DNA of 64,000 nt from Clostridia bacterium (lineage in GTDB: Bacteria > Bacillota > Clostridia > Oscillospirales > Acutalibacteraceae), in the NCBI GenBank assembly GCA_029007095.1, contig JAQXHF010000050.1, positions 1,061 to 65,060 of the forward strand, written 5' to 3'. A program made the translations under genes and the position numbers. How positions within the stretch are numbered: position 1 is the first letter of the stretch; each line of letters begins with the position of its first letter. Of this stretch, positions 8,223-23,120 are shown piece after piece. The notes beneath the pieces were generated by a model that saw only the letters and a program-made list of their open reading frames with translations, was not told where the DNA came from and searched no databases.

Positions 8223-8251
8223 TTGACATTCCGCGAAATTTGTCGTATTAT
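8223..8251 (+). promoter_or_regulatory. Sigma70-like promoter upstream of the large surface-protein gene
   Basis: TTGACA (8223-8228), 17-nt spacer, TATTAT (8246-8251). Confidence 0.5.
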
Positions 8252-8308: not shown

Positions 8309-11300
8309 ATGTTAATGCAGATAATGAAAAAACAGAAAGGAATGATAAAATTGATGGCAAAAAACAAGGGATTTAAAAGATTGTTTAGCCTTATACTGTG
8401 CTGCATTATGATACTCGGCATAGTACCTGCGACTGCTTTTGCGGTTGAAAGCGACAGGACATTTACTGCCGACGAGCAGGAGCAATACGATAAGCAGATC
8501 GTTAAAAGCAGTAAGGACAAGCTTTCCAATGAGATAAAAGAAGACGGAAAGGTCGAGATAAACGAGCAAGTCTTCCCGACCGGTAAAGAGAATGAATTTG
8601 AAATTCAGCTTGATGTTACTACCGACCAGACCGAGCTTCCCGGTGAAGCGTCAGCAGACGCGGCTGTTTACATCATGGTTGACAAGTCGAGCAGTATGAA
8701 CGGTTACAGCCCGGCAGTTCTTGATTCGGAGGAATATAACGCCATACTGGAAAAAGAGAGCATACTCAAAGGCGTCGAATTGCCGATCGGTACTTATCCT
8801 TCAAACGGAGTTTTAACGGCGGTCAAAGAGATATTGGATTCGGTAGACGGTATGACTGATGAAATTCGTCAGGAGGTTTACAACTGCTATCACAGACGAG
8901 CATGGTTTGAGAGAAAGGCTGTTATAAACTTCCTTGATGCTTACACTATGGATATACCGGAGGGTACTCACAGATATTTTGCTCTCGGTTCTTTCCATAA
9001 AGATGCAAAAACCTCTGTTGCATGGGCAGAAGTCGACTCCGATTGGCGTAACAGCTCGATAGCCAATACTGTTTTGGATTATACAAAAGGAACGACTTTT
9101 GAACCGTGGAATTCCTATTTTGCAAATTGGGCATACAATGCCGGATCTTCCGTATATACTAACGGAAGCGGTACAAATATCGAGGGCGCATATATCCTTA
9201 TGGATAATATGATTGCCTCAATTCAAAAAGAACAAAATATACCGGAGGAGAATTTATATTGTTTCTTCATTTCCGACGGTGAGCCTACGGCTTATGCTAC
9301 CGATCCCTCATCAACGGCAATAGATAGAGTTAAAGGTACTTCTATGCCGAGCAACAATCATTTGTATGATGAGACAAGGCTTAATAATATAGCAAGCCGC
9401 GTTAGTGACGAAAGCTATCAGGTTAGCGTTATTTGGTACGGTAACGCCACTCTTGATAACTCAATATATAACCTTGAAAACGGACACACGCTTTACGCCG
9501 ATAATTTCTCCGATGTAGGTACAGAGGAAAAAATTTCAAACTTGGACATCAGTACCGAGTTCATAAGTAAGGCTAAAAAAATAACAAGGATTAACCCTTG
9601 GACGGTTGATTTGTCGCTTGATTCCGCCAGATTTAGTTATGACGGAGTATGCTCTGACAGCCCTTCGCCGGCAAGCACCGTAACTTTAAGCGACGATAAA
9701 ACCGAGCTTGAATGGAATTTGAAACAATGTACTCCGACAACGCTTGAAGACGGACGGAATTATTATCAGATCAATTATCTTGCAACGCTCGATAATACGA
9801 CCGAGGACTTTGTTGAGGAACAGGCGTATCGGACTAACAGCCGCGCGGTTCTGCATTATGCTGTAACCGAAAATGATATTGTAACAAATTTGCGAAATGC
9901 AGAGTTTGATTTGCCTGAGGTCAAAGGCTATCTCGGTGATGTTATTATTAACAAGACCGATGATTCCGGCGCGCCGCTTGAGGGTGCTGTATTCAAACTG
10001 AAAAATGATGAAATCGGCGCAAAAACCGCTGTTTCCGCTGCTGACGGAACGGTAAGCTTTACTTCAATACCGTCTGCGAGAACATATACTCTCAGCGAGG
10101 TATCCGCACCGTTTGGATTCCTTCCCGACACTACCGACCATTCGGTTGAGATAAGATACGGCGTTGTAACATTTGACGGAGTCGATGACTCCCTTACCGT
10201 TGTTAACAAGAGCAACGGAGATATTCAGAAGCTTTCACCGGATTCGGTTGTTATTGATTACGGTATACCCGTCAAAATCAGCGTAGTTGCAAACGACTAT
10301 GTAAAGGATACCGGCAATCTTAATGCGATTTCGGCTTCGGTTACTGACGGAACAGAGCTTAACAATACCGCATACAGCGAGAGCAGACTTGTTAATCCGT
10401 CCCAGACGGTTCAGCTTGTTCACGGTACGGCTCAGATTTCGGGAAATCAGATTATCTATCAGCTAAACGATATGACGATTAACAAGGAAGAAGTCCTTTA
10501 CTACGAATTCCTTGATTCCGACGGAAATTACTATTATACTACCGTTACCGTAATTCCTGCGACGAATATTTATTATGAAGATTCGTTCATAACTTTTAAA
10601 GATAACGGTGATTACAAGTGGGTTACCGAGGGTGAGCCGTACACCGGCAAATTCCAGGCGGAGGACAGACCAGGCACATTTAGCTTGTCCGAGTATGACG
10701 CTAACAATCCTTACGGAAGCGACAGCGCATACAATGACAGCTCCGTAACTTACAGTATGGGCAGCGTTAAGAGCGCGACGGTTGACGCCGGCTCGCTCGG
10801 TAAAGAGCCGACCGCAGAGTTCACTTTCTGCGGAACCGGATTCGATCTGTTCAGCGTGACGAATGCCGAATCGGGCGCAATGCTCGTCGCTGTCTATAAC
10901 GAGAGCGGAACTCGCGTTAAGAATTATGTCGTTCATACATATTACGGATACAGCTACGATGAGGAAGAGGGCAAATTCCTGCCCAATCTTGAATCAACAG
11001 ACGGTCTTTATCAGGTTCCCGTTATCCGTGCAAGAGATTTTGATTACGGAACCTACAAGGTTGTTATCACTCCGAAATACGGCAAGACTTTCGATATGAA
11101 TTACGACGAGAATGCGACCGATAATTCATACAAGCTTTATGTCGATTCGGTAAGAATATATGATCCCGCAGGAAAACAGCCTGATCCTAATTCGGTTGTA
11201 GGCGAAGCGTATATTCAGGATCACGAGTATTTCCCGCAGTATATGGAAATAAGAGATAATATTATTTCTGCTGAGACTTTTTATGATTCTACTGCGGAGC

Positions 11301-12475
11301 TTGACGAAACTCAGTACACAACCGGAGCTGTATTTATAGACGGTATTTCTTCGGTTGACGGTAACGGAATCAGCGACAAGTTCCTTGAAAGCGGACCTAA
11401 CAACGAGGTTTATCTTGCCAAAGGGCAGGCTATCGCGTTCCACCTTACTTCAAACCGTGCGATTGAGCCGGGCGGCAGTCTGGCTCTCGGAATGAAAGTC
11501 GTCGGCGGTGCTACGGACGGTAAGCTTATATGTATGAATTCTAATGAGCTTAGTCCGAACACAATTACTATATGCGGCGGCCACGAGATGTTCAGAAGTC
11601 TTGATTCCTGCGTTGAATGGGAACTTACAGACGGAACATATAAGACTAAGTATCCGATAATTCTTATTAACAGTTCCGACTGCATTATTTCTCTTACTAA
11701 CCTCAAATGGGCATATGCTACAACGGAAGATGAGGCTAATAACGGACTCACCCTTTCTGTAACAAGCTCAACTCCGAAATCGGCTCTGATGGCTGTTCGC
11801 AACTTCGCTCTTAGCGTGAATGAATTTACCCCCGAAAATGTTTCGGCAGAATGGGTAAGTGACAGCGTTTACAGATACGATTCCGCTACACTTAAAATTA
11901 CAACAGACAGCGATGTTGATAAAGTTATAGCGGACGGTAAGGAAATCACTAAGTTCACGACCGATGAAAACGGCTGTCGCGTATGGATATATAAAATTAC
12001 TGCATACAACTGCGGTGAGAAAAAGGTTTCACTTGTCTTTGAAAACAGTAACGGCGTTCAGTCCGCGGCGATTGAAAGTCCGGTGCTTACCGTAACCAAG
12101 ATTCCGATGTCCGAGAGTATCAAGAGCGTCGAGTGGGTTAAATCAAGCGTAAGCCTTAACAGTACTGCTGTGCTTAAAATAACAACAGGATTGAATGTTA
12201 CTTCGGTTAAAATTAACGGTGTTGATACTGCCGAATATGTTTGTATGTATCAGGACGGCACGGAGTACAGCTCGGGAACTAAGGTTTGGACTTACAGATT
12301 CACAGCGTCTGTAAGCGGAAGACAGGCGGTTACCGTTACCGCATATGACAGTGATAATGAATCAAGCGGCAATATCACATCTCCGGTTCTCACGGTTAAC
12401 AGTCGAAGCTCAAATAATTGGCTGACTGCAATATTTATGAAGATAGTCGCGTTTTTCGGAGGTCTGATGAAATGA
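8309..12475 (+). CDS. Large surface protein: signal peptide, vWA domain (MIDAS DKSSS at 8681-8695), CnaB/SpaA-type fold, Ig-like regions, two tandem ~95-aa repeats (about 11818-12100 and 12101-12404), C-terminal TM anchor
   Basis: AAVYIMVDKSSSM...GTNIEGA...FISDGEPT (vWA). GDVIINKTDDSGAPLEGAVFKLKN...TYTLSEVSAPFGF (CnaB). The tail NNWLTAIFMKIVAFFGGLMK is hydrophobic. No LPXTG motif. True start could be anywhere from 8309 to 8354. Confidence 0.85.
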   Translation: MLMQIMKKQKGMIKLMAKNKGFKRLFSLILCCIMILGIVPATAFAVESDRTFTADEQEQYDKQIVKSSKDKLSNEIKEDGKVEINEQVFPTGKENEFEIQLDVTTDQTELPGEASADAAVYIMVDKSSSMNGYSPAVLDSEEYNAILEKESILKGVELPIGTYPSNGVLTAVKEILDSVDGMTDEIRQEVYNCYHRRAWFERKAVINFLDAYTMDIPEGTHRYFALGSFHKDAKTSVAWAEVDSDWRNSSIANTVLDYTKGTTFEPWNSYFANWAYNAGSSVYTNGSGTNIEGAYILMDNMIASIQKEQNIPEENLYCFFISDGEPTAYATDPSSTAIDRVKGTSMPSNNHLYDETRLNNIASRVSDESYQVSVIWYGNATLDNSIYNLENGHTLYADNFSDVGTEEKISNLDISTEFISKAKKITRINPWTVDLSLDSARFSYDGVCSDSPSPASTVTLSDDKTELEWNLKQCTPTTLEDGRNYYQINYLATLDNTTEDFVEEQAYRTNSRAVLHYAVTENDIVTNLRNAEFDLPEVKGYLGDVIINKTDDSGAPLEGAVFKLKNDEIGAKTAVSAADGTVSFTSIPSARTYTLSEVSAPFGFLPDTTDHSVEIRYGVVTFDGVDDSLTVVNKSNGDIQKLSPDSVVIDYGIPVKISVVANDYVKDTGNLNAISASVTDGTELNNTAYSESRLVNPSQTVQLVHGTAQISGNQIIYQLNDMTINKEEVLYYEFLDSDGNYYYTTVTVIPATNIYYEDSFITFKDNGDYKWVTEGEPYTGKFQAEDRPGTFSLSEYDANNPYGSDSAYNDSSVTYSMGSVKSATVDAGSLGKEPTAEFTFCGTGFDLFSVTNAESGAMLVAVYNESGTRVKNYVVHTYYGYSYDEEEGKFLPNLESTDGLYQVPVIRARDFDYGTYKVVITPKYGKTFDMNYDENATDNSYKLYVDSVRIYDPAGKQPDPNSVVGEAYIQDHEYFPQYMEIRDNIISAETFYDSTAELDETQYTTGAVFIDGISSVDGNGISDKFLESGPNNEVYLAKGQAIAFHLTSNRAIEPGGSLALGMKVVGGATDGKLICMNSNELSPNTITICGGHEMFRSLDSCVEWELTDGTYKTKYPIILINSSDCIISLTNLKWAYATTEDEANNGLTLSVTSSTPKSALMAVRNFALSVNEFTPENVSAEWVSDSVYRYDSATLKITTDSDVDKVIADGKEITKFTTDENGCRVWIYKITAYNCGEKKVSLVFENSNGVQSAAIESPVLTVTKIPMSESIKSVEWVKSSVSLNSTAVLKITTGLNVTSVKINGVDTAEYVCMYQDGTEYSSGTKVWTYRFTASVSGRQAVTVTAYDSDNESSGNITSPVLTVNSRSSNNWLTAIFMKIVAFFGGLMK

Positions 12476-12711
12476 AAAAGAAATATATAAAACCTGAAAT
12501 AGGCTTTGAGAGTTTCAGACTTTCAACAGACATTGCCGCCGGCTGCGCTATGCTTGGTCAGCAGGCTCCGAATGCTTGCAAAATATACTATCCCGAATGG
12601 GGTATGACTTTGCTGACGGAGGAATTGTTATGCGACGCGACTCCGCCGAGCGGAACCGATTATGTTTGCTATCATGTTCCTGTTGCTGATACTAATGTTT
12701 TTGAATCATAA
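12472..12711 (+). CDS. 79-aa Cys-containing peptide, candidate RiPP precursor
   Basis: ATG 12472 overlaps the upstream TGA (ATGA). GGAGG lies 8 nt upstream of the ATG. Sequence: MKKKYIKPEIGFESFRLSTDIAAGCAMLGQQAPNACKIYYPEWGMTLLTEELLCDATPPSGTDYVCYHVPVADTNVFES. It has four Cys and a C-terminal Ser, and lies directly upstream of rSAM/SPASM and PqqD genes. Confidence 0.6.
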   Translation: MKKKYIKPEIGFESFRLSTDIAAGCAMLGQQAPNACKIYYPEWGMTLLTEELLCDATPPSGTDYVCYHVPVADTNVFES

Positions 12712-12756
12712 TTTAATTTGACGGAAGACAGGGAACTCTTTTCTTGCGTCAGAATA

Positions 12757-12792
12757 GGTCTGTCGCTTACTGCGGCAGACCTTGAGTTTTTT
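12757..12792 (+). terminator. Hairpin plus T-tract after the peptide gene (attenuator-like partial terminator)
   Basis: GGTCTGTCGC-ttac-TGCGGCAGACC with one mismatch, then ttgagTTTTTT. The RBS AGGAG of the next gene follows immediately. Confidence 0.5.
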
Positions 12793-12804: not shown

Positions 12805-13509
12805 ATGAAGAAAAAGGTTATAATTATAATAATTGCAGTTGCTGTTTTGTGTGCGGCGGCTCTCGCTGTTGCCGTTTTTTTAAATGACGGCGAAAATGAA
12901 AACAATACCGATAGCGGCGTTGCGGCAAGTCAGCAGGATTTCGATTTGCCTTATGCACTTCCGAACGGCTGCGTGATTACCGAAATCAAATCATACAACG
13001 GACCTTTTGTAGAGGACGGAAGCGGCGAAGAGAAAACAAATGTGACGGCAATCGTTATAAAAAATGATACAGGCAAAAATTTTCAGTATATAGATTTTAA
13101 TTTAAAATTCGAGGGTGCGGATAAAGATTATAATTTCAAAATTACAACTCTTTTTGACAACAGTTCTATGACGGTACTTGAAAGCAATGCGGCTGATTTT
13201 ATATCGGATAAAATAACTCACGCCGATATTTCACAGAGCATTGAATTTGCTTCTCAGCCTACCGTTCATCCGCAGGAGCTTGAAATATCGGTTGGCGACG
13301 GAATGATGAATGTTAAAAATATTTCCGGTGAGGATATAAACGGAAATATTTATGTGTATTATAAGATTGCAGACGGTGACGATTGGTTCGGCGGAATCAC
13401 CTATCGCTCTGCGGTGAGCGGATTAAAGAACGGCGAGCTTAAACAAATTTCAACAAGTCACTTCAAAAGTGAAACCTGTAAGGTTGTGTTTACCGAATAT
13501 GATAAGTAG
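12805..13509 (+). CDS. Signal-anchored extracytoplasmic protein of unknown function
   Basis: RBS AGGAG then ATG 12805. MKKKVIIIIIAVAVLCAAALAVAVFL is an N-terminal TM segment, followed by a beta-rich soluble domain. Confidence 0.65.
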   Translation: MKKKVIIIIIAVAVLCAAALAVAVFLNDGENENNTDSGVAASQQDFDLPYALPNGCVITEIKSYNGPFVEDGSGEEKTNVTAIVIKNDTGKNFQYIDFNLKFEGADKDYNFKITTLFDNSSMTVLESNAADFISDKITHADISQSIEFASQPTVHPQELEISVGDGMMNVKNISGEDINGNIYVYYKIADGDDWFGGITYRSAVSGLKNGELKQISTSHFKSETCKVVFTEYDK

Positions 13510-14341
13510 CTTTTACTCAATAGCAGATGTGATTTTAAGGCTCGACAGCGACGGATTGATTAAAGCAAACGGAATGCTCAGAAAGTTTGCGGTAAGTCGG
13601 ACGAGCGCAGATGTAACCGTGCGAGTCTTTAATACAGGCAGTCTCCCCGAAAAAGGCGAAAAGCTTGTTTACGGTGACGGCAGACGCTCGTTTTATGACA
13701 ACAACGGAACTTATCAGATGTTTTGCTCGTATTTTGATTCTGCTTTGAATGATTATGTTCCGTATTCCTGCCTGATTGGTTCCGGCGCGGAATATGAGCT
13801 GTATATAAAATATAAAAACGGCGAAATTTGGGATACAATGCTTTTGGACGCACTCGATTTTCCGAATATACTGCTCGATTTCGGAGCTGTTATTATGCAT
13901 TGCTCGTTTATAATCAAGGACGGTAAAGCCATACTTTTTACCGCAGATAAGCAGGTCGGCAAATCTACGCAGGCGGCTCTTTGGGAAAAATATTCGGGCG
14001 CTGAGATAATCAACGGCGACCGTGCGGCCGTTAAGCTTAAAGGCGGCGAGCTTTATGCTTACGGAGTTCCTTACTGCGGTTCGTCGGATATAAGCGAAAA
14101 CAAATCTGCACGGATAGCGGCTGTTGTCGAACTGTCGCAGAGTAAAAATAATGCGATTTACAAGCTTGACGAGGCGGCCGCATTCCGCTGCGTCCTTGGT
14201 AAATTCAGTTATAACCTGAACGATATGGATAAAGCTGTTAAGGCGGCCGATATGGCGGCTTTGATTTCAAGAAGTAAAGTCTATCATTTATCTTGTCTGC
14301 CCGACGAGAGCGCAGTAAGATTATTGGAGGAAGAGCTTTGA
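13499..14341 (+). CDS. HPr kinase-like P-loop protein (HprK-related kinase family)
   Basis: HCSFIIKDGKAILFTADKQVGKSTQAALW..GAEIINGDRAAV parallels the HprK core HG.LV...G.GVLI.G.SG.GKS..AL.L...GH.L..DD. Start is uncertain: ATG 13499 or GTG 13469. Confidence 0.6.
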   Translation: MISSFYSIADVILRLDSDGLIKANGMLRKFAVSRTSADVTVRVFNTGSLPEKGEKLVYGDGRRSFYDNNGTYQMFCSYFDSALNDYVPYSCLIGSGAEYELYIKYKNGEIWDTMLLDALDFPNILLDFGAVIMHCSFIIKDGKAILFTADKQVGKSTQAALWEKYSGAEIINGDRAAVKLKGGELYAYGVPYCGSSDISENKSARIAAVVELSQSKNNAIYKLDEAAAFRCVLGKFSYNLNDMDKAVKAADMAALISRSKVYHLSCLPDESAVRLLEEEL

Positions 14342-14343
14342 AA

Positions 14344-15510
14344 ATGCTGAATGAACAGAAAAATAATTTTCGTTATGCTTCGTCAGAACCGGAAATTTCA
14401 TTTTTGCTCCATGAAAAAGGGCGAAGACTCGGCATACCGGTTTCTGGTACTTTTGAGCTTTGTTCACGATGCAATTTTAATTGCAAAATGTGCTATATTC
14501 ACAGAATGGGCGATACTGCGGAAAACGAGCTGACGGCTGAACAATGGCTCAAACTCGGAGAGAAGGCACGAGATGCCGGAACGGTTTTTCTGCTTCTTAC
14601 GGGAGGCGAACCGCTTATCAGATCCGATTTTAAGCAAATATATTCCGGACTTAAAAGTTTTGGCTTGGTTGTTTCGATAAATACAAACGGATTTCTTCTT
14701 TCCGGCGAGATGACGGAATTTTTTATAAAAAATCCTCCTTACAAACTGAATATAAGCCTTTACGGTTCAAACGACGATATCTACCAAAAGCTGTGCGGCG
14801 TTCCGGCGTATTCGGTTGTTATAGATAACATAAAGAAGCTGAAAGCTCACGGAATTCAGGTGAAGCTCAACATAAGTATTACTCCCGAAAACTGCGGTCA
14901 GATAAAGGAGATATATTCAATAGTAAAAGAATTAGGCATTAACGCTAAGGCTACAACCTATATGTATCCGCCGATTCGTACCGCCGGCGGCAAAACCGGC
15001 GAAAATTCCGGAAGATTATCTGCCGCCGAAGCTGCACAATACCGTGTTGAATGGGACGAATTGAGATATGGGAAGAAGCAGTTTATAAGCCGAATCGACG
15101 CTATGGAAAAAGGCTTGGCGGTTTATGAAAACGAATGTATAGAACCGAGCGAAGACGCAGACAGGATGCGTTGTCGGGCAGGAAGCAGTAGCTTCTGGAT
15201 AAATTACAGAGGTGAAATGAGCGCCTGCGGAGTAATGACCAACCAGGTCTTTAACACTATGGAGCTTGGCTTTGACGAAGCTTGGAAAAAAGTTCGCGAA
15301 AGTACCGCGTGCATACGACTTCCTAAGGAATGTACCGTATGTAAATATCGAAATTTTTGCAATGTTTGCGCTGCGGTTTGTTACAGCGAGAGCGGAAAAA
15401 CGGACAAAGTTCCCGATTATGTATGCGAGCTTTCCCGACTTACCGCGGTATATTCAAGCAAAAGAAAAACGGAACTTCTGAACGGAGATGATTTACAAAA
15501 TGAAGATTAA
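14344..15510 (+). CDS. Radical SAM/SPASM-domain peptide-modifying enzyme
   Basis: CNFNCKMC (CX3CX2C), GGEPL. C-terminal Cys-rich SPASM region CRAGSSSFWINYRGEMSACG...CTVCKYRNFCNVCAAVCY. ATG 14344 follows GGAGG. Confidence 0.85.
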   Translation: MLNEQKNNFRYASSEPEISFLLHEKGRRLGIPVSGTFELCSRCNFNCKMCYIHRMGDTAENELTAEQWLKLGEKARDAGTVFLLLTGGEPLIRSDFKQIYSGLKSFGLVVSINTNGFLLSGEMTEFFIKNPPYKLNISLYGSNDDIYQKLCGVPAYSVVIDNIKKLKAHGIQVKLNISITPENCGQIKEIYSIVKELGINAKATTYMYPPIRTAGGKTGENSGRLSAAEAAQYRVEWDELRYGKKQFISRIDAMEKGLAVYENECIEPSEDADRMRCRAGSSSFWINYRGEMSACGVMTNQVFNTMELGFDEAWKKVRESTACIRLPKECTVCKYRNFCNVCAAVCYSESGKTDKVPDYVCELSRLTAVYSSKRKTELLNGDDLQNED

Positions 15511-15766
15511 AAAAGAAGTTGTTTTCCGTTCCGTTGCAGGAGAGAATATGCTTATACCTGTCGGTGAAACGGTAGGGGAATACAACGGTATTTTTTCGAT
15601 GACTGAGGTAGGAGCCGAGATTTGGCAGGCTATCGAAAACGGCAGTAATGAAAAGCAGATTGTCGATTTGATTTCATCTGAGTATGAAATTGATTCCGAT
15701 ACGGCAAAAGCAGATGTGAAAAGTTTTATTGATAAACTTTGTGAATTCGGAATTGTTGAGAGATAA
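15500..15766 (+). CDS. PqqD-family protein (RRE-type peptide chaperone)
   Basis: ...GIFSMTEVGAEIWQAIENGSNEKQIVDLISSEYEIDSDTAKADVKSFIDKLCEFGIVE fits the PqqD pattern. The gene overlaps the end of the rSAM gene. Confidence 0.7.
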   Translation: MKIKKEVVFRSVAGENMLIPVGETVGEYNGIFSMTEVGAEIWQAIENGSNEKQIVDLISSEYEIDSDTAKADVKSFIDKLCEFGIVER

Positions 15767-15770
15767 AAAA

Positions 15771-15796
15771 TCCCGCTTGCATGTCAGCAGGCGGGA
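15771..15796. terminator. Bidirectional terminator between convergent genes
   Basis: TCCCGCTTGC-atgtca-GCAGGCGGGA, a 10-bp stem. An A-run precedes it, giving a T-run on the minus strand. The T-tract on the plus strand is weaker. Confidence 0.55.
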
Positions 15797-16768: not shown

Positions 16769-17380
16769 TTAATCGTTTTCTGTAATGAGCGTTCTAACTC
16801 TTAAAGGAATTTGCATTTCGTCAGCGATTTTCTGACATTCTGTGATTTCTTCCTTTGTAATTATATCAACAACGGTAAACTTGACCGTGGGAATGTATTT
16901 TTTACATTCTTTTGCGAAATTAAGCAAAGACGAATACGATTCTTTGCCGAATTTAGGGCGAGAAACCTCTGCATAGCGTTCAGCCGACGGAGCGTTAAGG
17001 CTTATCGAAACGGTGTCGACTATTCCTTTAAGCAAAGGCGCAACTGATTTACCGTTTATCAGGTCGGCAAGGCCGTTAGTGTTGAGCCTGATTTTAATAT
17101 CATATTTTGATTTGAGATATTCTGCGCTTTTGATAAGGTTATCAAGAGCCTGAGTCGGTTCTCCGTAACCGCAGTAAATGACTTCTTTATACGGCGAAAA
17201 ATCAAACTTGTCGATTTCCGCTTTGATTTCGTCGATAGTGGGATCTTTTGAGAGCCAAAGCGAATCGGCAGAGCCTAAACCGTCGCCGTTGCTTCGTATG
17301 CAGAATGTGCAGGAGCAGGGACATTTATTGGTAATGTTCATATAGACGCTGCCGCCGTAGGTGTAAACAATGTCAGCCAT
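16769..17380 (-). CDS. Small radical SAM protein (resembles the TatD-associated radical SAM family)
   Basis: MADIVYTYGGSVYMNITNKCPCSCTFCIR... includes CX3CX2C. About 200 aa. GYGEP motif present. Confidence 0.65.
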   Translation of the reverse strand: MADIVYTYGGSVYMNITNKCPCSCTFCIRSNGDGLGSADSLWLSKDPTIDEIKAEIDKFDFSPYKEVIYCGYGEPTQALDNLIKSAEYLKSKYDIKIRLNTNGLADLINGKSVAPLLKGIVDTVSISLNAPSAERYAEVSRPKFGKESYSSLLNFAKECKKYIPTVKFTVVDIITKEEITECQKIADEMQIPLRVRTLITEND

Positions 17381-17382
17381 AA

Positions 17383-17952
17383 TTAAAAACTCCTTAACTT
17401 TGATTTAATGTTGATTTTATCAAGAGCAACCGCGAGTACGAAGAAAACAACCGCACTTCCTGCCGCCTGAATGACATTTCCGACGAGGCAGTATGTTGCC
17501 GAAACCCACGGAGTTGCACTGAAAAAGTAGCTTGTGAATTGTGAAAAGCTTGCGGTAGAACCGAGAGCAACGATTACAACCTCAGCTATGTAATAGCCGA
17601 TAACCGTTATCGCAGAGCCGATTGCGACAGCGACGCAGTTGCGTACATTGAGAATCTTGTCTTTCTTCGATGTGAAGGAGGGAACAAGGAGAGCCTTGAT
17701 GATAAGAGTGGGCAGTATATACATAGTATAACCGCCGATAGCATCCGAAAGCATACCGCCGATTCCGGCGCTGAGCATAGCGAGCGGAGTCGGAAGAAGA
17801 CAGGCGGCAATATATATCATAGCGTCACCGAGATGAATGTATCCGTTGTGCGACGGAATTTTTACAAAATATGTCAGCGCAAAGGTCATAGCCGCAAACA
17901 GAGAAGCGAGAATAATTTGTCTTAGCAATGTTTTTTCGTTGTTTTTTTTCAT
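17383..17952 (-). CDS. ECF-transporter S (substrate-capture) component, substrate unknown
   Basis: About 190 aa with six hydrophobic helices. ...YIHLGDAMIYIAACLLP...GGMLSDAIGG... is typical of ECF S components. It sits 2 nt upstream of the rSAM gene. Confidence 0.65.
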   Translation of the reverse strand: MKKNNEKTLLRQIILASLFAAMTFALTYFVKIPSHNGYIHLGDAMIYIAACLLPTPLAMLSAGIGGMLSDAIGGYTMYILPTLIIKALLVPSFTSKKDKILNVRNCVAVAIGSAITVIGYYIAEVVIVALGSTASFSQFTSYFFSATPWVSATYCLVGNVIQAAGSAVVFFVLAVALDKINIKSKLRSF

Positions 17953-19411: not shown

Positions 19412-19559
19412 ACCGAAAAAATCTACACCCAAAAATATGAAAAAAGTATTTACAAATTATAATTTTTTTGATAAGATTAACATAAGCCTAAGTATGGGGA
19501 TTTGTGCAGGTATGCAATCTGCATAGATTACGGCAATAACATAGGAGGTGTTTCTTACC

Positions 19560-22500
19560 ATGAAACAGTCTAAGAAGCTTTTGTGCGTTCTGCTCTCAAT
19601 GCTCATTATGATGACTGCATTGACCGTAGGTGCGAGCGCATATAAAACCGCCTATCTTTATCCTGAGGGATACGACTCGATCAACGATCCTTATTGGAAT
19701 AAAGATCAGGCTTCTACCGCTTTCCTCGATTATATCGATGACTTCCTTGCGGGAGCCAATGTTCACGAGAGCTATGCGGGAATTGATATTGAAATTTATT
19801 CTCTTGATTCTACTTTCGACACTCTCAAAGGAATCAGAGAAGGCGCTATTTGGGGACTCAGAGGTCTTTGCGGTGACATCGCTGACCTTGACCTCAGTAT
19901 TCCCAAAAACAGCAGTATCAGAAGAACTTCAACAACTATGAGTGATAACGAGTTCTTCTTCTATGTTCTCAGTTTCTTCGCAAGCAATGCCGATCCGCTC
20001 TATAAAATAGCGGACAATACACTTGACCTCGGTGTTATCGGATGGTTCCTCGATATCGGCGATATGATTAAGAGCAATATGCCGACTATCGACCTTAACG
20101 ACCTCCACGGCTCTATTAACGGTATTCTTTACGAAACACTCAACGGTTCAAGAGACGGATTTGACGCTTCAACCGCAAGACTTGACGACATTCTTCAAAC
20201 TTTTGTCAACAGTAATTGCGTAACCGTCATCTGCAATATGTTTGCCGACGCAGAAACCGGCGAAAATACTGTTGCGTCTTTCCTCGGATTGCCTTTGAAC
20301 GCTGACGGTACTATTAACGGAAACTTCGGTTTGCTTGACCTTTGTCCGAGCTTGAGCGCGGATAAGATTGATATTACCAAGGTTTCTCTCTATGAGCTTG
20401 TTGAGAATTTGGTAGGCGCTCTTGTTGATGACCTTATCGTTCCTCTTGCCGGCGGATTGCTCATGGATTTGCTCAAAATTGATCCGGAAAATCCCGATGA
20501 TCCGAATATGGCGTATGTTGATATGGTTATATCTCTGTTCCTCACCGCCGATTATGTCGGACTTCCCGAGGACGCTTCGGCAGACGAGATTATGACGGCG
20601 TTTATGACGATGAAGGGCGTTGAGAACCCCGAAAATCCGAAGCCGCTCGACAAACTCAATGTCGGTATCGAATATATTCTTAAAGAAGGTATCACTCAGT
20701 ACATCTACTTCGAGGAAGACGGACAGGGCGGTAAATACCTTACTCTCGCTCCGTCGCTTGCAGGACAGATTACTAACCTTATAAAAACTGTTGTTCCTTT
20801 GCTTCCGACTTTCTGGGATGACGCCCCCGTACTTTCTCAGGAAGAGCTTGACGCATTTAACGCAATGGGCGACGAGGAAACATTTGCTTATACCGTTCAG
20901 ATTATTTTGAGCGCAGTAACAGATGATATCGTTTTCCCGACTAACTGTAAGACCATTAAGGAACTTGCAACATATACTCTTATAGGTATCGCTGAGGATT
21001 ACTGCCCGAACATTGATTTCGAGGCAAAAATCGCTTCCGGTGAGATTGTTCCGAATTCGGACGATTGCCTTGATGTTGCGGCTGTTCTTCTTCGCTACTA
21101 TATGGTAGGTACGGTTAATATCATAGTTCCCGACGAGGAGCCTACATTTGAGGAGCTTCTCAATTATCTGATGGATTATGCTATTGATTTGATCGGCGGT
21201 CTTTTCAATGTTTACCCCAACGAAGGCGATAAAGAAACCTATGCCGACAATCCGTGGTATAAGATATATATGACGGTCTGCCAGTGGCTTCCGCTTCAAA
21301 CAATGTTCTACGGTACAGAGGATTCATGGATGGGCCTCAGAGAGCTTATCATGGACAGAATACTTAACAATATTCTTGACTTCAATCTTCAAGGAATTCT
21401 CTCCCTTATCGGTAAGCGTCTCGATTCCGGAATGGCAAAACCGTTCTCTCAGATGGTCTGCGACCTCCTTGCCCGTATAGTTAACGGTCTGTTTGACCTC
21501 GCTCCCGAAATGAGTACCGATGTTACAGACAATGCTCAGCAGAAAGCTCTTATCATTCCTTACGGCTATTCTATGGTAGATATGCTTATAACGAATGTTA
21601 ACTCTGAGGGCGCATATAACGGAACAGGTCTGAAAAACACAGTCAAGATGCTTCTGACCTATCTTCCGAACATTGCCGACGGCGACGACGCACTCCTTAG
21701 AAATTCACTTCCTCTGGTTTGCAGTCTTATCGGTATCCTTGATAAAGATAACAACTCTTATATCAAGACGCTTTATCGTAAGAATTCCTCTGCGGGAATG
21801 TCTTACAGTATCAAACAGCTCAAAGAGCTTTATAACGAAAAAGCGTTTATAGTAGATGAAACTAAGAACTACTATGATGACAGCTATGTTTATTATGAAA
21901 TGGTTGACTATGCACCGTGGGCATACAACGAGTACGAGGACATCGTTGACGACGCAAAGAAGATTATAGATCAGTATGACGCGGCAAAGGCGGATCCCGA
22001 CAACAATACTTTCCCGTCAAGATCCGATATTACTTATGCTTACTTTGCACTTGATAATTACTATGATGTTCTTATCTCCAATCAGACTTTGACATCTGAT
22101 TATCAGTTCTCCAAGGTTTATAACAGTGTTCTTGCTGCAAACTATACTAATGTAAATGATGACGGTTCGCAGAAGTACACAGACAGAACATGGAAAGCTT
22201 ACGAACACGCTCTTGCTTTTGCACAGCAGGTTCGCGCGGAGTATGACAGCTATGCAAGCAAAGGCGTACTTAGCGATTATCAGCAGTCCAAGGTTAATAT
22301 GGCTAAGAATAAGCTCCGTGCAGCAGTAAATAATCTTAAAGCTTATTGCGGACTTGCAGATTATACTGAGCTTGATACTAATGTTGAGCGTGTTGTTTAC
22401 GCGAGTGAGAGTCCCAGCGCATTCACAATGGAAAGCGTTATGGAAGTGCTGAAAGCTTATGACGCAGCGCTGAAACTTGACCGTGACTACGATATTGACG

Positions 22501-23120
22501 ATCAGAGAATTGTTGATATGTATTCAGACGCTCTTGATGAGGCTCTTGCAAATCTTCAGGTTGGCGCATATATCCAGCTTGAAAATACAGTTGACGATAC
22601 AAAGCAGTACATCGACTACAATACCGGATTCATCTTCGGCTTGCCTGAGAATTTCGCAAGTCAGGAAAAGATTGACGAGTGGGGCAGCTTCAGCGACTAC
22701 TTCTATGACTACGGTTATCAGGAGAACGGTGAAGACCTTGAAATTGCTTCGACTGCAAACGGTAACGGTACAGGTTCCAAGATAAAAATTATAGGCTATG
22801 ACGATAGCGGCAGAAATGTTGTACTCCGTGATTACACAGTAGTTATTTTCGGCGATGTTAACGGTGACGCATTCGTTGACGCTCAGGACGCAGTTATAAT
22901 GAGAGCTTACGCTTCGTTTGCTCTTGATTCCGAATTCGCTCCCGATAGCGTTGTTTTCGCAGGCGATGTTGACTATAATAATATCCTTGGTATAGGCGAC
23001 GCAAAGATGATTGAGAAAGCCGGACTTAAAAAGTCAGGTTCTGAAATCAATCAGTCTCCTGAGCAGTTCATGCAGGATGAATACACATTTATGTCAATCT
23101 ACGAAGCTAATTTCAAATAA
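19560..23120 (+). CDS. Large secreted dockerin-bearing protein of unknown function (FIVAR-like helical repeats, then a C-terminal type-I dockerin)
   Basis: RBS AGGAGG then ATG 19560. Signal peptide ...TALTVGASA. C-terminal GDVNGDAFVDAQDAVIMRAY...AGDVDYNNILGIGDAKMIEKA is a duplicated Ca-binding dockerin repeat. Confidence 0.8.
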   Translation: MKQSKKLLCVLLSMLIMMTALTVGASAYKTAYLYPEGYDSINDPYWNKDQASTAFLDYIDDFLAGANVHESYAGIDIEIYSLDSTFDTLKGIREGAIWGLRGLCGDIADLDLSIPKNSSIRRTSTTMSDNEFFFYVLSFFASNADPLYKIADNTLDLGVIGWFLDIGDMIKSNMPTIDLNDLHGSINGILYETLNGSRDGFDASTARLDDILQTFVNSNCVTVICNMFADAETGENTVASFLGLPLNADGTINGNFGLLDLCPSLSADKIDITKVSLYELVENLVGALVDDLIVPLAGGLLMDLLKIDPENPDDPNMAYVDMVISLFLTADYVGLPEDASADEIMTAFMTMKGVENPENPKPLDKLNVGIEYILKEGITQYIYFEEDGQGGKYLTLAPSLAGQITNLIKTVVPLLPTFWDDAPVLSQEELDAFNAMGDEETFAYTVQIILSAVTDDIVFPTNCKTIKELATYTLIGIAEDYCPNIDFEAKIASGEIVPNSDDCLDVAAVLLRYYMVGTVNIIVPDEEPTFEELLNYLMDYAIDLIGGLFNVYPNEGDKETYADNPWYKIYMTVCQWLPLQTMFYGTEDSWMGLRELIMDRILNNILDFNLQGILSLIGKRLDSGMAKPFSQMVCDLLARIVNGLFDLAPEMSTDVTDNAQQKALIIPYGYSMVDMLITNVNSEGAYNGTGLKNTVKMLLTYLPNIADGDDALLRNSLPLVCSLIGILDKDNNSYIKTLYRKNSSAGMSYSIKQLKELYNEKAFIVDETKNYYDDSYVYYEMVDYAPWAYNEYEDIVDDAKKIIDQYDAAKADPDNNTFPSRSDITYAYFALDNYYDVLISNQTLTSDYQFSKVYNSVLAANYTNVNDDGSQKYTDRTWKAYEHALAFAQQVRAEYDSYASKGVLSDYQQSKVNMAKNKLRAAVNNLKAYCGLADYTELDTNVERVVYASESPSAFTMESVMEVLKAYDAALKLDRDYDIDDQRIVDMYSDALDEALANLQVGAYIQLENTVDDTKQYIDYNTGFIFGLPENFASQEKIDEWGSFSDYFYDYGYQENGEDLEIASTANGNGTGSKIKIIGYDDSGRNVVLRDYTVVIFGDVNGDAFVDAQDAVIMRAYASFALDSEFAPDSVVFAGDVDYNNILGIGDAKMIEKAGLKKSGSEINQSPEQFMQDEYTFMSIYEANFK

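What the first reader, a model, noticed from the sequence alone, without database searches (positions are those of the whole stretch)
12459..12480. Peptide gene is translationally coupled to a 1388-aa vWA/CnaB surface protein (ATGA overlap)
The TGA of the giant surface-protein gene (12473-12475) overlaps the ATG of the peptide ORF (12472-12474). GGAGG (12459-12463) lies inside the last codons of the upstream gene. RiPP precursors normally head their own operon. Here the candidate precursor is the distal cistron of an adhesin-like gene. This suggests either that the modified peptide works together with the surface protein, or that the adhesin promoter was captured. I know of no described system that pairs a vWA/CnaB surface protein with an rSAM-matured peptide.
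Basis: seen in the sequence. Interest (0 to 1): 0.65.

Follow-up and report, generated by a model that had tools for sequence, protein, structure and literature searches.

The report
Surface protein gene paired with modified peptide
A gene for an 80-residue cysteine-rich peptide, matured by a radical-SAM enzyme, sits directly behind the gene for a giant cell-surface protein, and the same pairing recurs in about 25 other gut Clostridia loci, so the two products probably work together in a system not yet described.

Summary
The overlap is real. The TGA of the 1388-aa ORF (12473-12475) overlaps the ATG of a 79-aa ORF (12472-12474). A 4-nt overlap alone is ordinary. What matters is that the pairing is conserved.

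The peptide belongs to a large family with no Pfam or NCBIfam model: 1726 clusters at 50% identity. Its consensus is MKKKYxKPxIxFExF…AAGC…C…C…CYHVPxxxxNxFxS.

In 25 of 27 distinct locus arrangements from five or more Clostridia and Erysipelotrichales families, the peptide gene lies -4 to +29 nt behind a surface-protein gene on the same strand (64 nt in one fused case). A hairpin/T-run terminator usually follows.

The conserved partner is not the vWA/CnaB head. Heads vary: GH2, GH20, metallophosphatase, SLH, dockerin. The shared part is an undescribed all-beta module of about 550 aa.

The pair stays adjacent when the maturase genes move or are absent. Those genes encode PqqD, a rSAM/SPASM enzyme, an HprK-like P-loop protein and a membrane-tethered protein.

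Best reading (confidence 0.45): the matured peptide is a dedicated partner of the module, by QhpC-like logic. Main rival: a bacteriocin or signal peptide co-regulated with the surface protein.

This is a new variant of rSAM-RiPP systems. Interest 0.7.

The parts
8223..8251 (+). Best sigma-70-like promoter match on the + strand (TTGACA-17-TATTAT, 11/12). Candidate promoter of the surface-protein/peptide transcript.
   Evidence: This is a consensus match only. No match of 9/12 or better lies between 10541 and 12472 on the + strand.
8309..12475 (+). Gene for the 1388-aa secreted surface protein ('BIG'). In order: N-terminal signal peptide, RrgA/GBS104-like head, conserved module, two Ig-like repeats, aromatic amphipathic C-terminal tail. 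No LPXTG.
9650..10156 (+). GBS104-like Ig domain (aa 448-539) and SpaA/CnaB-type prealbumin-fold domain (aa 543-616). These form the variable 'head', which is not the conserved partner of the peptide.
   Evidence: PF21426 1e-7, PF17802 2.3e-14; RrgA 2ww8
10226..12118 (+). Conserved all-beta module (aa ~640-1270; core aa ~740-1135) with no Pfam or NCBIfam model. This is the part shared by every surface protein that precedes a peptide gene.
   Evidence: AF2 model pLDDT 86, made of Ig-like and jelly-roll sandwiches. Foldseek returns only generic beta-sandwich matches.
12404..12472 (+). C-terminal aromatic, amphipathic tail (SRSSNNWLTAIFMKIVAFFGGLMK). Homologues carry similar tails, but those ending in SLH or dockerin do not. 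Probable anchor.
   Evidence: inference from mutual exclusivity
12458..12462 (+). Shine-Dalgarno GGAGG of the peptide gene, 9 nt before the ATG and inside the last codons of the big gene.
   Evidence: An equivalent GGAGG/AGGAGG lies before the peptide ATG in nearly all homologous loci.
12472..12475 (+). ATGA overlap: ATG of the peptide gene (12472-74) and TGA of the big gene (12473-75).
   Evidence: The same 4-nt overlap (GTGA) occurs in L029, and a 1-nt overlap (TAATG) in L031.
12472..12711 (+). 79-aa precursor-like peptide: MKKKYIKPEIGFESFRLSTDIAAGC…C…C…CYHVPVADTNVFES. It has a YxxP leader motif, four Cys, a conserved CYHVP…F.S end and a C-terminal Ser.
12756..12792 (+). Intrinsic-terminator-like hairpin (11-bp stem, 7 GC pairs) plus T-run, between the peptide gene and the maturase genes. 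Preceded by a second hairpin at 12717-12753.
   Evidence: z=-4.6. A comparable GC hairpin follows the peptide gene in most of the 17 loci checked, with a clear T-run in most of those.
12805..13509 (+). Membrane-tethered extracytoplasmic protein ('MEM', 234 aa). It has an N-terminal TM helix here and a lipoprotein-type lipobox in some homologues. No family assignment.
13469..14341 (+). HprK-like / ScmC-like P-loop protein.
   Evidence: TIGR04249 ScmC 7e-4, far below cutoff; PF27840 ScmC on homologues; profile hits HPr kinase/phosphorylase 1jb1/2qmh, E=0.04, over the H…GxGKS…DR motif
14344..15510 (+). Radical SAM enzyme with a SPASM-type C-terminal Cys cluster.
   Evidence: PF04055 1.7e-23; partial hits to many rSAM/SPASM maturases, all below cutoff; SkfB 6efn 4e-13; C44x3C48x2C51, plus 9 C-terminal Cys
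15488..15766 (+). Stand-alone PqqD-family protein (RiPP recognition element).
   Evidence: PF05402 4e-16; best NCBIfam hit is lasso_PqqD_Bac, below cutoff
15771..15796 (+). Terminator-like hairpin that closes the cassette. The next gene is convergent.

Best explanation
The junction is the centre of a conserved two-gene unit: a surface-protein gene followed at once by a gene for an ~80-aa Cys-rich peptide. This unit sits inside a six-gene cassette that is widespread in gut Clostridia and has not been described.

Proposed mechanism:
1. One transcript starts upstream of the big gene and mostly ends at the hairpin/T-run just after the peptide gene. Surface protein and peptide are therefore made together and in step. 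The ATGA overlap and the GGAGG 9 nt upstream let ribosomes start the peptide as they finish the big protein. Read-through supplies lower amounts of the maturation proteins. (Gene order, signals and their conservation are shown. The transcript is inferred.)
2. In the cytoplasm the PqqD protein binds the invariant YxxP leader and hands the peptide to the rSAM/SPASM enzyme. That enzyme cross-links the four conserved cysteines, most likely as thioethers. (Inferred from family knowledge.)
3. Where present, the HprK-like P-loop protein phosphorylates the nearly invariant C-terminal Ser, as HPr-kinase homologues do on lasso-peptide precursors. (Inferred.)
4. The matured peptide leaves the cell by an unidentified route. 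At the cell surface it acts as a dedicated partner, either a tightly bound ligand or a small subunit, of the conserved beta-sandwich module. The membrane-tethered protein may assist. This is the same logic by which the rSAM-cross-linked QhpC peptide becomes the gamma subunit of quinohemoprotein amine dehydrogenase. (Inferred. This is the least certain step.)
For: Adjacency:
- The window and 24 further distinct arrangements have a module-bearing gene directly upstream of the peptide gene on the same strand, at -4 to +29 nt. One fused case is at 64 nt, and L008 is inferred from a contig edge.
- The organisms are labelled Ruminococcus, Acutalibacteraceae, Oscillospiraceae, Lachnospiraceae, Faecalimonas and Erysipelotrichaceae.
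- Starting from the module instead of the peptide, 8 of 9 contexts again show the peptide gene.

The pair is the stable unit:
- In L007 the maturase genes precede the big gene, yet the peptide gene still follows it.
- In L035/36, PqqD precedes the big gene.
- In L010/L022/L023 and L029 the pair has no adjacent maturase genes. L027 lacks the rSAM and HprK-like genes.

Only the module is shared:
- Heads vary: SpaA/GBS104 here, VWA, GH2, GH20, Metallophos+Big_2, Big_3, SLH, dockerin, Flg_new.
- Module and rSAM distance matrices correlate (Mantel r=0.81, p<=0.0005, n=17).

Transcription signals:
- A terminator-like hairpin follows the peptide gene here, and a comparable GC hairpin follows it in most loci checked.
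- There is a promoter-like site upstream of the big gene and none in its 3' end.

Peptide features, from 186 family members (alignment):
- YxxP in the first 20 residues in 183.
- Exactly four Cys in 152.
- C-terminal Ser in 170.
- A CY[HNDQ]x[PA] motif near the C-terminus in 171.
- The C-terminal motif is as conserved as the leader, which suggests a conserved binding partner.

Maturases: PqqD, rSAM/SPASM and HprK-like proteins.

Precedents:
- HPr-kinase homologues phosphorylate the C-terminal Ser of lasso precursors (PMC8498205).
- QhpD cross-links QhpC, which then joins exported subunits (PMC7876137).

The cassette also encodes a second extracytoplasmic protein, which is either TM-anchored or a lipoprotein.
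Against: - No physical interaction has been shown.
- No protein fusing the peptide to the module appears among the 150 best family representatives.
- The cassette has no exporter and no leader protease, so there is no known way for a cytoplasmically matured peptide to reach the surface protein.
- One module protein has no peptide gene (L028). One peptide gene has no adjacent big gene (second cassette in L011). One has the big gene on the opposite strand (L012).
- The HprK-like gene is missing in the closest relative, L031, so phosphorylation cannot be essential.
- The Mantel correlation would also arise from plain vertical inheritance.
- The module model looks complete without the peptide (pLDDT 86).
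- The sample of about 27 arrangements is small against 1726 clusters.
Confidence: 0.45

Rival explanations
1. The peptide is a free secreted RiPP, either a sacti/ranthipeptide-type bacteriocin or a signalling peptide. The membrane-tethered protein is its immunity or receptor protein. The surface protein is only co-regulated with it, or helps deliver or process it outside the cell.
For: - A Cys-rich precursor plus PqqD plus rSAM/SPASM is the standard kit of thioether bacteriocins. The closest solved relative of the enzyme is the sactisynthase SkfB.
- The middle of the peptide varies in length and sequence, as bacteriocin cores do.
- The membrane-tethered protein is a lipoprotein in some lineages. 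That is the architecture of LanI-type immunity proteins (established knowledge).
- A terminator after the precursor gene is usual in bacteriocin operons.
Against: - It does not explain why the peptide gene stays glued to one particular module across very different heads and rearranged cassettes.
- It does not explain why big-gene/peptide pairs persist without nearby maturase or candidate immunity genes.
- No ABC exporter or leader protease lies in any cassette examined.
- The 14-residue C-terminal motif is conserved across 1726 clusters. That is unusual for a diversifying toxin.
Confidence: 0.25
2. There is no functional link. The precursor gene uses the promoter of a highly expressed surface-protein gene, and the arrangement has simply been inherited vertically.
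For: - 4-nt overlaps and short gaps are ordinary in operons. GGAGG-N9-ATGA occurs 4 times in this window.
- Every peptide gene has its own Shine-Dalgarno sequence, and the junction RNA is unstructured.
- The Mantel correlation fits simple co-inheritance.
Against: - The adjacency survives head swapping, relocation of the maturase genes to the other side of the big gene (L007), insertion of the big gene between PqqD and the peptide gene (L035), and loss of adjacent maturase genes.
- Peptide identity among these loci falls to about 31-35% across several families. Neutral gene order rarely survives that much divergence.
Confidence: 0.1
3. The peptide is a sacrificial precursor of a small cofactor, as PqqA and MftA are. 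The cofactor would be cut from the conserved CYHVP region and used by the surface module.
For: - PqqD and an rSAM/SPASM enzyme are the core of the PQQ and mycofactocin pathways. PqqE and mycofactocin maturase appear among the partial NCBIfam hits.
- The conserved C-terminal motif recalls the conserved C-terminal residues of MftA (established knowledge).
Against: - Four conserved Cys are spread over 40 residues, and the peptide is 80 aa long. That fits a cross-linked peptide better than a small excised cofactor.
- No peptidase or oxidoreductase genes accompany the cassette.
- The surface proteins are extracellular, and their heads are hydrolases or adhesins rather than redox enzymes.
Confidence: 0.07
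4. The surface protein itself is a second substrate of the cassette enzymes, through its aromatic, Lys/Arg-rich C-terminal tail. The small peptide would then be a helper.
For: - The tails are rich in Trp/Phe and Lys/Arg (FFKKLFSWFK, IRNWFSSWR). Some rSAM/SPASM enzymes cross-link these residues, as in streptide Lys-Trp (established knowledge).
- The tail is encoded immediately before the peptide gene.
Against: - Surface proteins ending in SLH or dockerin have no tail yet keep the peptide gene.
- The YxxP leader, which the PqqD protein would recognise, is on the peptide and not on the tail.
Confidence: 0.05

Closest known systems
Quinohemoprotein amine dehydrogenase gamma subunit system (QhpC with rSAM QhpD; PMC7876137)
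   Same: A small leader-bearing Cys-rich peptide is encoded in one operon with large exported proteins. An rSAM/SPASM-type enzyme cross-links it in the cytoplasm (Cys-to-Asp/Glu thioethers). It then works as a stoichiometric subunit of the exported protein rather than as a free natural product.
   Different: - No homology to QhpA, B or C was found.
- There is no heme or quinone chemistry, and no QhpE protease, QhpF ABC exporter or QhpG monooxygenase.
- The host is Gram-positive, and the partners are adhesin or glycosidase surface proteins.
- This system has a separate PqqD protein and an HprK-like protein.
- Subunit status here is an inference.
Sactipeptide / ranthipeptide RiPP clusters (SkfB, CteB, PapB, RumMC)
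   Same: A Cys-containing precursor with an N-terminal leader, an rSAM/SPASM maturase and an RRE (PqqD-like) recognition element. The best solved-structure match of the enzyme is SkfB.
   Different: - The precursor family is new, with no Pfam or NCBIfam model.
- The core is long, about 55 aa.
- There is no exporter or protease.
- The precursor is the distal cistron of a surface-protein gene instead of heading its own operon.
- The C-terminal motif is conserved.
SynChlorMet (SCM) cassette of Haft (ScmC HprK-like, ScmD PqqD-like, ScmE/ScmF rSAM/SPASM)
   Same: The same three protein types occur side by side: an HprK-related P-loop protein, a PqqD-family protein and an rSAM/SPASM enzyme (PF27840 ScmC on homologues).
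   Different: - All scores are far below the equivalog cutoffs: 18.9 vs 125, 17.8 vs 100, and 82.7 vs 400 bits.
- There is one rSAM enzyme, not two.
- The taxa differ.
- The SCM cassette has no surface-protein partner that I know of (from memory; no paper found).
HPr-kinase homologues of lasso-peptide clusters (paeninodin PadeK; PMC8498205)
   Same: An HprK-like P-loop protein is encoded next to a PqqD-type RRE and a precursor whose last residue is Ser. The leader carries YxxP, the motif lasso RREs recognise. The best NCBIfam match of the PqqD protein is the lasso type.
   Different: - There is no lasso cyclase and no B2 peptidase.
- The similarity to HprK is remote (E=0.04 to PDB HprK/P).
- The kinase gene is absent from some cassettes (L031).
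- Phosphorylation here is untested.
Sortase-assembled pilus tip adhesins (RrgA, GBS104)
   Same: The N-terminal half of the window protein has a GBS104-like Ig domain and a SpaA/CnaB-type domain, and it hits RrgA. It also has MIDAS-like motifs.
   Different: - There is no LPXTG and no sortase gene next to it.
- This head is replaced by unrelated heads in homologous loci, so it is not what the peptide is linked to.

Membership tests
rSAM-dependent thioether RiPP (sactipeptide/ranthipeptide) | Radical SAM maturase with CxxxCxxC and a SPASM or twitch auxiliary-cluster domain | tested here: met
   PF04055 at 1.7e-23. C44x3C48x2C51, plus a C-terminal C278…C296 and a C331xxC334x5C340xxC343x3C347 cluster. 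NCBIfam alignments to SPASM maturases run to the C-terminus.
rSAM-dependent thioether RiPP (sactipeptide/ranthipeptide) | Leader-bearing Cys-containing precursor and an RRE (PqqD-like) to bind the leader | tested here: met
   Stand-alone PqqD, PF05402 at 4e-16. Conserved N-terminal 25 residues with YxxP, and four conserved Cys.
rSAM-dependent thioether RiPP (sactipeptide/ranthipeptide) | Cys S to C-alpha (or C-beta/gamma) thioether cross-links in the product | not testable with these tools
   Needs mass spectrometry or NMR of the matured peptide.
rSAM-dependent thioether RiPP (sactipeptide/ranthipeptide) | Membership in a curated maturase or precursor family | tested here: not met
   Every NCBIfam hit of the enzyme is far below its cutoff (best 101.9 vs 500 bits). 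The peptide has no Pfam or NCBIfam hit.
SynChlorMet cassette | ScmC, ScmD and two rSAM/SPASM proteins (ScmE, ScmF) scoring above the equivalog cutoffs | tested here: not met
   ScmC 18.9 vs 125 bits, ScmD 17.8 vs 100, ScmE 82.7 vs 400. Only one rSAM gene lies in the cassette.
Lasso peptide cluster | Asn-synthetase-like lasso cyclase and a transglutaminase-like leader peptidase | tested here: not met
   The cassette encodes only the membrane-tethered protein, the HprK-like protein, the rSAM enzyme and PqqD. Neither enzyme appears in the Pfam or NCBIfam scans or in the homologous loci.
HPr kinase/phosphorylase-like peptide kinases | HprK-type P-loop core (His…GxSGxGKS…DDR) and kinase activity on a C-terminal Ser | tested here: inconclusive
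   A profile of 13 homologues hits HprK/P structures first, but weakly (E=0.04), across exactly this motif. H144, the GKST P-loop and GDR are invariant. The peptide ends in Ser in 170 of 186 members. Activity is not testable here.
Quinohemoprotein amine dehydrogenase (qhp) system | QhpA/QhpB/QhpC structural subunits together with QhpD, QhpE and QhpF | tested here: not met
   No such families appear among the hits of any cassette protein, and there is no protease or ABC exporter. The resemblance is one of logic only.
Sortase-dependent pilin/adhesin | C-terminal LPXTG sorting signal and a neighbouring sortase | tested here: not met
   No LPXTG-like motif lies near the C-terminus. The neighbouring genes are a PHP-domain protein and the RiPP cassette.
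   No Pfam VWA hit at E<=0.1 on aa 101-450. DxSxS, T and D motifs are present in the right order, and short local matches to the VWA region of the L007 homologue are not significant. Homologues in L009, L011 and L033 do have VWA hits.

The most novel reading that the evidence does not exclude
A large family of rSAM-cross-linked peptides (at least 1,700 clusters), possibly phosphorylated, are not free natural products. They would be obligatory small subunits or ligands of a previously unrecognised ~550-aa beta-sandwich module. That module is carried by hundreds of Gram-positive surface enzymes and adhesins. This would be a 'RiPP as protein subunit' system at the Clostridial cell surface, or a new surface-protein assembly or anchoring device, with its own membrane-tethered helper and an unknown export route.
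Probability: 0.3. Interest if true: 0.85.

Novelty: new variant of a known kind. Interest (0 to 1): 0.7.

Why it matters
RiPP genome mining treats a precursor plus its tailoring enzymes as a self-contained unit that makes a diffusible compound. Here the most conserved neighbour of the precursor is not an enzyme. It is a giant surface protein carrying a specific, unannotated module.

If the peptide is a partner of that module, three things follow:
- It would extend the rare QhpC-type case, a radical-SAM-matured peptide acting as a protein subunit, to the surface of abundant gut and rumen Clostridia.
- It would give a function to a large 'hypothetical' peptide family and to a widespread domain of unknown function on glycosidases and adhesins.
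- It would point to an unknown export or assembly step.

Even if the peptide proves to be a bacteriocin or signal, the family still matters. It has about 1,700 clusters, a YxxP leader, four Cys and a C-terminal Ser next to an HprK-like protein, and no model in Pfam or NCBIfam. That makes it a clean new target for RiPP chemistry.

Tried and rejected
- **Complex prediction.** I built 8 fused module-linker-peptide sequences with a paired alignment (A5). No interaction test was possible.
- **Peptide alone in AF2.** pLDDT was 55 with no fold, so I ran no fold search on it.
- **Fold search of the whole module.** Only generic multi-beta-sandwich matches came back (canavalin, SGBP-B, PrgB Ig domains, galactose oxidase; TM <= 0.16). 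No function could be assigned.
- **First genome scan.** The scan with the 37-sequence alignment failed for lack of a conserved stretch. It worked with a 20-sequence subset.
- **False positive.** L024 from the metagenome scan is an unrelated MKKKYFKPEM peptide without Cys and was dropped.
- **Programmed frameshift or read-through fusing the big protein to the peptide.** Rejected. The peptide frame is -1 relative to the big gene but there is no slippery site. All homologues have a stop, a gap and their own Shine-Dalgarno sequence.
- **Shine-Dalgarno masking as a basis for strict coupling.** The junction RNA is not more structured than shuffled sequence.
- **Riboswitch or known leader in the cassette.** No Rfam hit.
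- **Defence system.** No PADLOC hit.
- **Membrane-tethered protein as a sortase-like transpeptidase.** Rejected, because it has no conserved Cys.
- **Peptide N-terminus as a lipoprotein signal (MKKK…IAAGC).** Rejected, because the region between is charged rather than hydrophobic.
- **Literature.** Seven full-text searches found nothing describing this pairing. The library lacks many subscription papers, so a prior description cannot be excluded.


Full report
**1. The observation**

The window reads …TTCGGAGGTCTGATGAAATGAAAAAGAAA… around 12455-12480. The 1388-aa ORF 8309..12475 ends with TGA at 12473-12475. An ATG at 12472-12474 opens a 79-aa ORF that ends at 12711.

So the ATGA overlap and the Shine-Dalgarno sequence inside the upstream gene are real. 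On its own this is ordinary. Four-base overlaps are the commonest overlap in bacterial operons (established knowledge), and GGAGG-N9-ATGA occurs four times in this window. The junction RNA is no more structured than shuffled sequence (z=0.21). Nothing therefore shows that peptide translation depends on translation of the big gene.

**2. The genes around it**

Downstream, on the same strand, lie five further features:
- a membrane-tethered protein (12805-13509);
- an HprK/ScmC-like P-loop protein (13469-14341);
- a radical SAM/SPASM enzyme (14344-15510);
- a PqqD-family protein (15488-15766);
- a terminator-like hairpin (15771-15796).

The big protein has these parts:
- a signal peptide;
- a GBS104-like Ig domain and a SpaA/CnaB-type domain, with a hit to the pilus tip adhesin RrgA;
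- a long C-terminal region with no family hit;
- two Ig-like repeats;
- an aromatic amphipathic tail;
- no LPXTG.

A VWA domain is not detected by Pfam, even at E<=0.1. Only MIDAS-like motifs can be seen.

**3. The peptide is a real and very large family**

One search found 37 homologous clusters. An exhaustive profile search of 1.84 billion representatives found 1726 clusters at E<=1e-3 and 576 at E<=1e-10. The best 150 are all stand-alone proteins of 76-102 aa.

The consensus is MKKKYxKPxIxFExFxLSTxIAAGC…C…C…CYHVPxxxxNxFxS. Among 186 members:
- 183 have YxxP in the first 20 residues;
- 152 have exactly four Cys;
- 171 have the CY[HNDQ]x[PA] motif near the C-terminus;
- 170 end in Ser.

AF2 finds no fold for the unmodified peptide (pLDDT 55). 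That is what one expects of a precursor that needs cross-links.

**4. The key result: the junction is conserved**

I collected loci by three routes:
- from the peptide, in one genome per species and in metagenomes;
- from exact peptide sequences;
- independently, from homologues of the big protein's C-terminal region.

Mapping the window proteins onto all loci gives 27 distinct arrangements that contain a peptide gene. In 25 of them, a gene homologous to residues ~640-1270 of the big protein lies directly upstream on the same strand.

| Gap (nt) | Loci |
|---|---|
| -4 | window, L029 (GTGA) |
| -1 | L031 (TAATG) |
| +2 to +4 | L030, L035, L009, L011 |
| +9 to +29 | most others |
| 64 | L018 (fused case) |

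- L017 lies at -1 by the gene call, or about +17 if the conserved MKKQY start is used.
- L008 is cut by the contig edge, but the 30 nt before its peptide gene encode a typical big-protein tail.
- The exceptions are L012 (big gene divergent) and a second tandem cassette in L011.
- Of nine module proteins taken at random from the homologue list, eight are followed by a peptide gene. One (L028) is followed by a terminator instead.

The source organisms are labelled Ruminococcus, Acutalibacteraceae, Oscillospiraceae, Lachnospiraceae, Faecalimonas and Erysipelotrichaceae. Peptide identity to the window falls to about 31-35%.

**5. What is conserved is a module, not the adhesin head**

The upstream proteins range from 487 to more than 3300 aa. 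Their N-terminal parts differ:
- VWA;
- GH2;
- GH20;
- metallophosphatase plus Big_2;
- Big_3;
- Flg_new;
- PA14.

The common part is an all-beta module with strongly conserved motifs: IPATxxYYED, YGxD, FTFxGTGFD, DxxRxYxP, GPNNEVYL and LTNxK. AF2 models it with confidence (pLDDT 86) as Ig-like and jelly-roll sandwiches. Foldseek gives only generic beta-sandwich matches.

Most of these proteins end in a Trp/Phe-rich amphipathic tail. Those that end in SLH repeats or a dockerin lack the tail but keep the peptide gene. The tail looks like one of several alternative anchors. The module is the constant partner.

**6. The pair is more stable than the cassette**

| Locus | Arrangement |
|---|---|
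| L007 | The four maturation genes lie upstream of the big gene; the peptide gene still follows it |
| L035/36 | PqqD precedes the big gene |
| L010/L022/L023, L029 | The pair is followed by unrelated genes |
| L027 | Lacks the rSAM and HprK-like genes |
| L031 (closest relative) | Lacks the HprK-like gene |

Module and rSAM distances correlate (Mantel r=0.81, p<=0.0005, n=17). This fits long co-inheritance but would also follow from vertical descent alone.

**7. Transcription signals**

The best promoter-like site on the + strand is just upstream of the big gene (8223-8251). None scoring 9/12 or better lies in its last ~1.9 kb.

Between the peptide gene and the next gene there is an 11-bp GC-rich hairpin followed by a T-run (12756-12792; z=-4.6). 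A comparable GC hairpin follows the peptide gene in most of the 17 loci examined, with a clear T-run in most of those.

The simplest reading is a big-gene/peptide transcript with partial read-through into the maturation genes. This is inferred, not shown.

**8. Mechanism proposed**

PqqD proteins are RiPP recognition elements. The invariant YxxP of the leader is the motif that lasso-type RREs bind, and the best NCBIfam match of this PqqD protein is the lasso type (family knowledge).

The rSAM/SPASM enzyme is most similar among solved structures to the sactisynthase SkfB. With four conserved Cys, thioether cross-linking is the likeliest chemistry (inference).

The HprK-like protein shares the His / P-loop / DR core of HPr kinase/phosphorylase. 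HPr-kinase homologues in lasso clusters phosphorylate the C-terminal Ser of the precursor (PMC8498205), and this family ends in Ser in 91% of members. Because the gene is missing from some cassettes, this step can only be accessory.

The cassette also encodes an extracytoplasmic protein that is TM-anchored in some lineages and a lipoprotein in others. This points to action outside the cell.

Taken together, the following features lead me to favour a dedicated partnership of the matured peptide with the module:
- the constant adjacency to the module;
- the shared transcript;
- a C-terminal motif as conserved as the leader.

This follows the logic of QhpC, which QhpD cross-links before it joins exported subunits (PMC7876137). 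I put this at 0.45.

**9. Weak points and rivals**

There is no exporter or leader protease in any cassette. No peptide-module fusion turned up.

| Rival | Confidence | Main argument |
|---|---|---|
| Free bacteriocin or signal, with the membrane-tethered protein as immunity | 0.25 | Fits the enzyme kit and the variable middle of the peptide, but not the fidelity to one module or the pairs without maturase genes |
| Pure promoter sharing | 0.10 | Hard to square with the rearranged cassettes |
| Excised cofactor | 0.07 | Four Cys spread over 40 residues fit a cross-linked peptide better |
| Modification of the big protein's tail | 0.05 | SLH- and dockerin-ended proteins lack the tail yet keep the peptide gene |

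**10. Comparison with known systems, and novelty**

The machinery is of a known kind: an rSAM/SPASM RiPP system with a discrete RRE. It resembles Haft's SynChlorMet cassette and the lasso kinases in parts. It fails the membership tests for SCM, lasso, qhp and sortase-pilin systems (see the membership table).

Three things are new:
- the precursor family;
- the module;
- their conserved pairing, with a membrane-tethered helper.

Seven full-text searches found no description of it, though that library is incomplete. I rate it a new variant of a known kind, interest 0.7. There is a 0.3 chance that it is a true 'RiPP as surface-protein subunit' system, which would deserve about 0.85.

Noticed in passing
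L018:9380-10180 (same in L019): In a high-GC Clostridia contig, the gene after the SLH-bearing module protein encodes the precursor peptide through CYHV, fused in frame to the P-loop half of the ScmC/HprK-like protein. There is no separate membrane-protein gene. This is either a natural peptide-kinase fusion or a deletion remnant.
   Followed up: partly
window 12472-12546 (peptide aa 1-25): The conserved N-terminus MKKK…IAAGC looks superficially like a lipoprotein signal: a basic start and an A-[AGS]-[GDS]-C 'lipobox' in 118 of 186 members. But the stretch between is charged and amphipathic, not hydrophobic. Probably a coincidence, but unexplained.
   Followed up: partly
L014:8239-8931, L016:9582-10277, L017:8107-8841, L012:8785-9432 compared with window 12805-13509: The cassette's membrane-tethered protein has a lipoprotein-type signal (…LLxAC/GC) in some lineages and a plain TM anchor in others. 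The ~170-aa extracytoplasmic domain has conserved EDGSD, VYYK and GGITYR motifs, no conserved Cys and no family assignment.
   Followed up: partly
L009 and L011 (two contigs of one Erysipelotrichaceae MAG); L011:13168-16375: One genome carries at least three cassettes. L011 has two in tandem with duplicated PqqD genes, and the second peptide gene has no big gene in front of it.
   Followed up: no
L010:10300-10430 (and L022): After the terminator that follows the peptide gene there is another small ORF (MKAFQYPEVKIQIFAPVDILTDSTSEPTDSTVCDVELPIVPL), then its own strong terminator. This lineage has no maturase genes nearby.
   Followed up: no
L013, L021, L026: In this lineage the module protein is minimal (~490-730 aa) and has no tail. 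The peptide ends …CDCYH(T/S)AA…S(A/Y) instead of CYHVP…F.S. No membrane-protein gene is seen before the contigs end. This may be co-variation between the peptide C-terminus, the tail and the membrane protein.
   Followed up: no
window 16769-17380 (- strand) and 17383-17952 (- strand): A second, unrelated radical SAM gene (TIGR04100 'rSAM_pair_X', 307 bits, above cutoff) lies next to a 189-aa multi-pass membrane protein, just beyond the cassette on the opposite strand.
   Followed up: no
window 19548-23120 (+ strand): Another large secreted protein (1190 aa) whose C-terminus looks like a dockerin (GDVNGDAFVDAQDAVIMRAYA…). This suggests a cellulosome-type organism. It does not contain the module and has no peptide gene after it.
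   Followed up: no
window 12717-12753: A second stable hairpin lies directly before the terminator hairpin, between the peptide gene and the membrane-protein gene. The pair could act as an attenuator. No Rfam family matches.
   Followed up: partly
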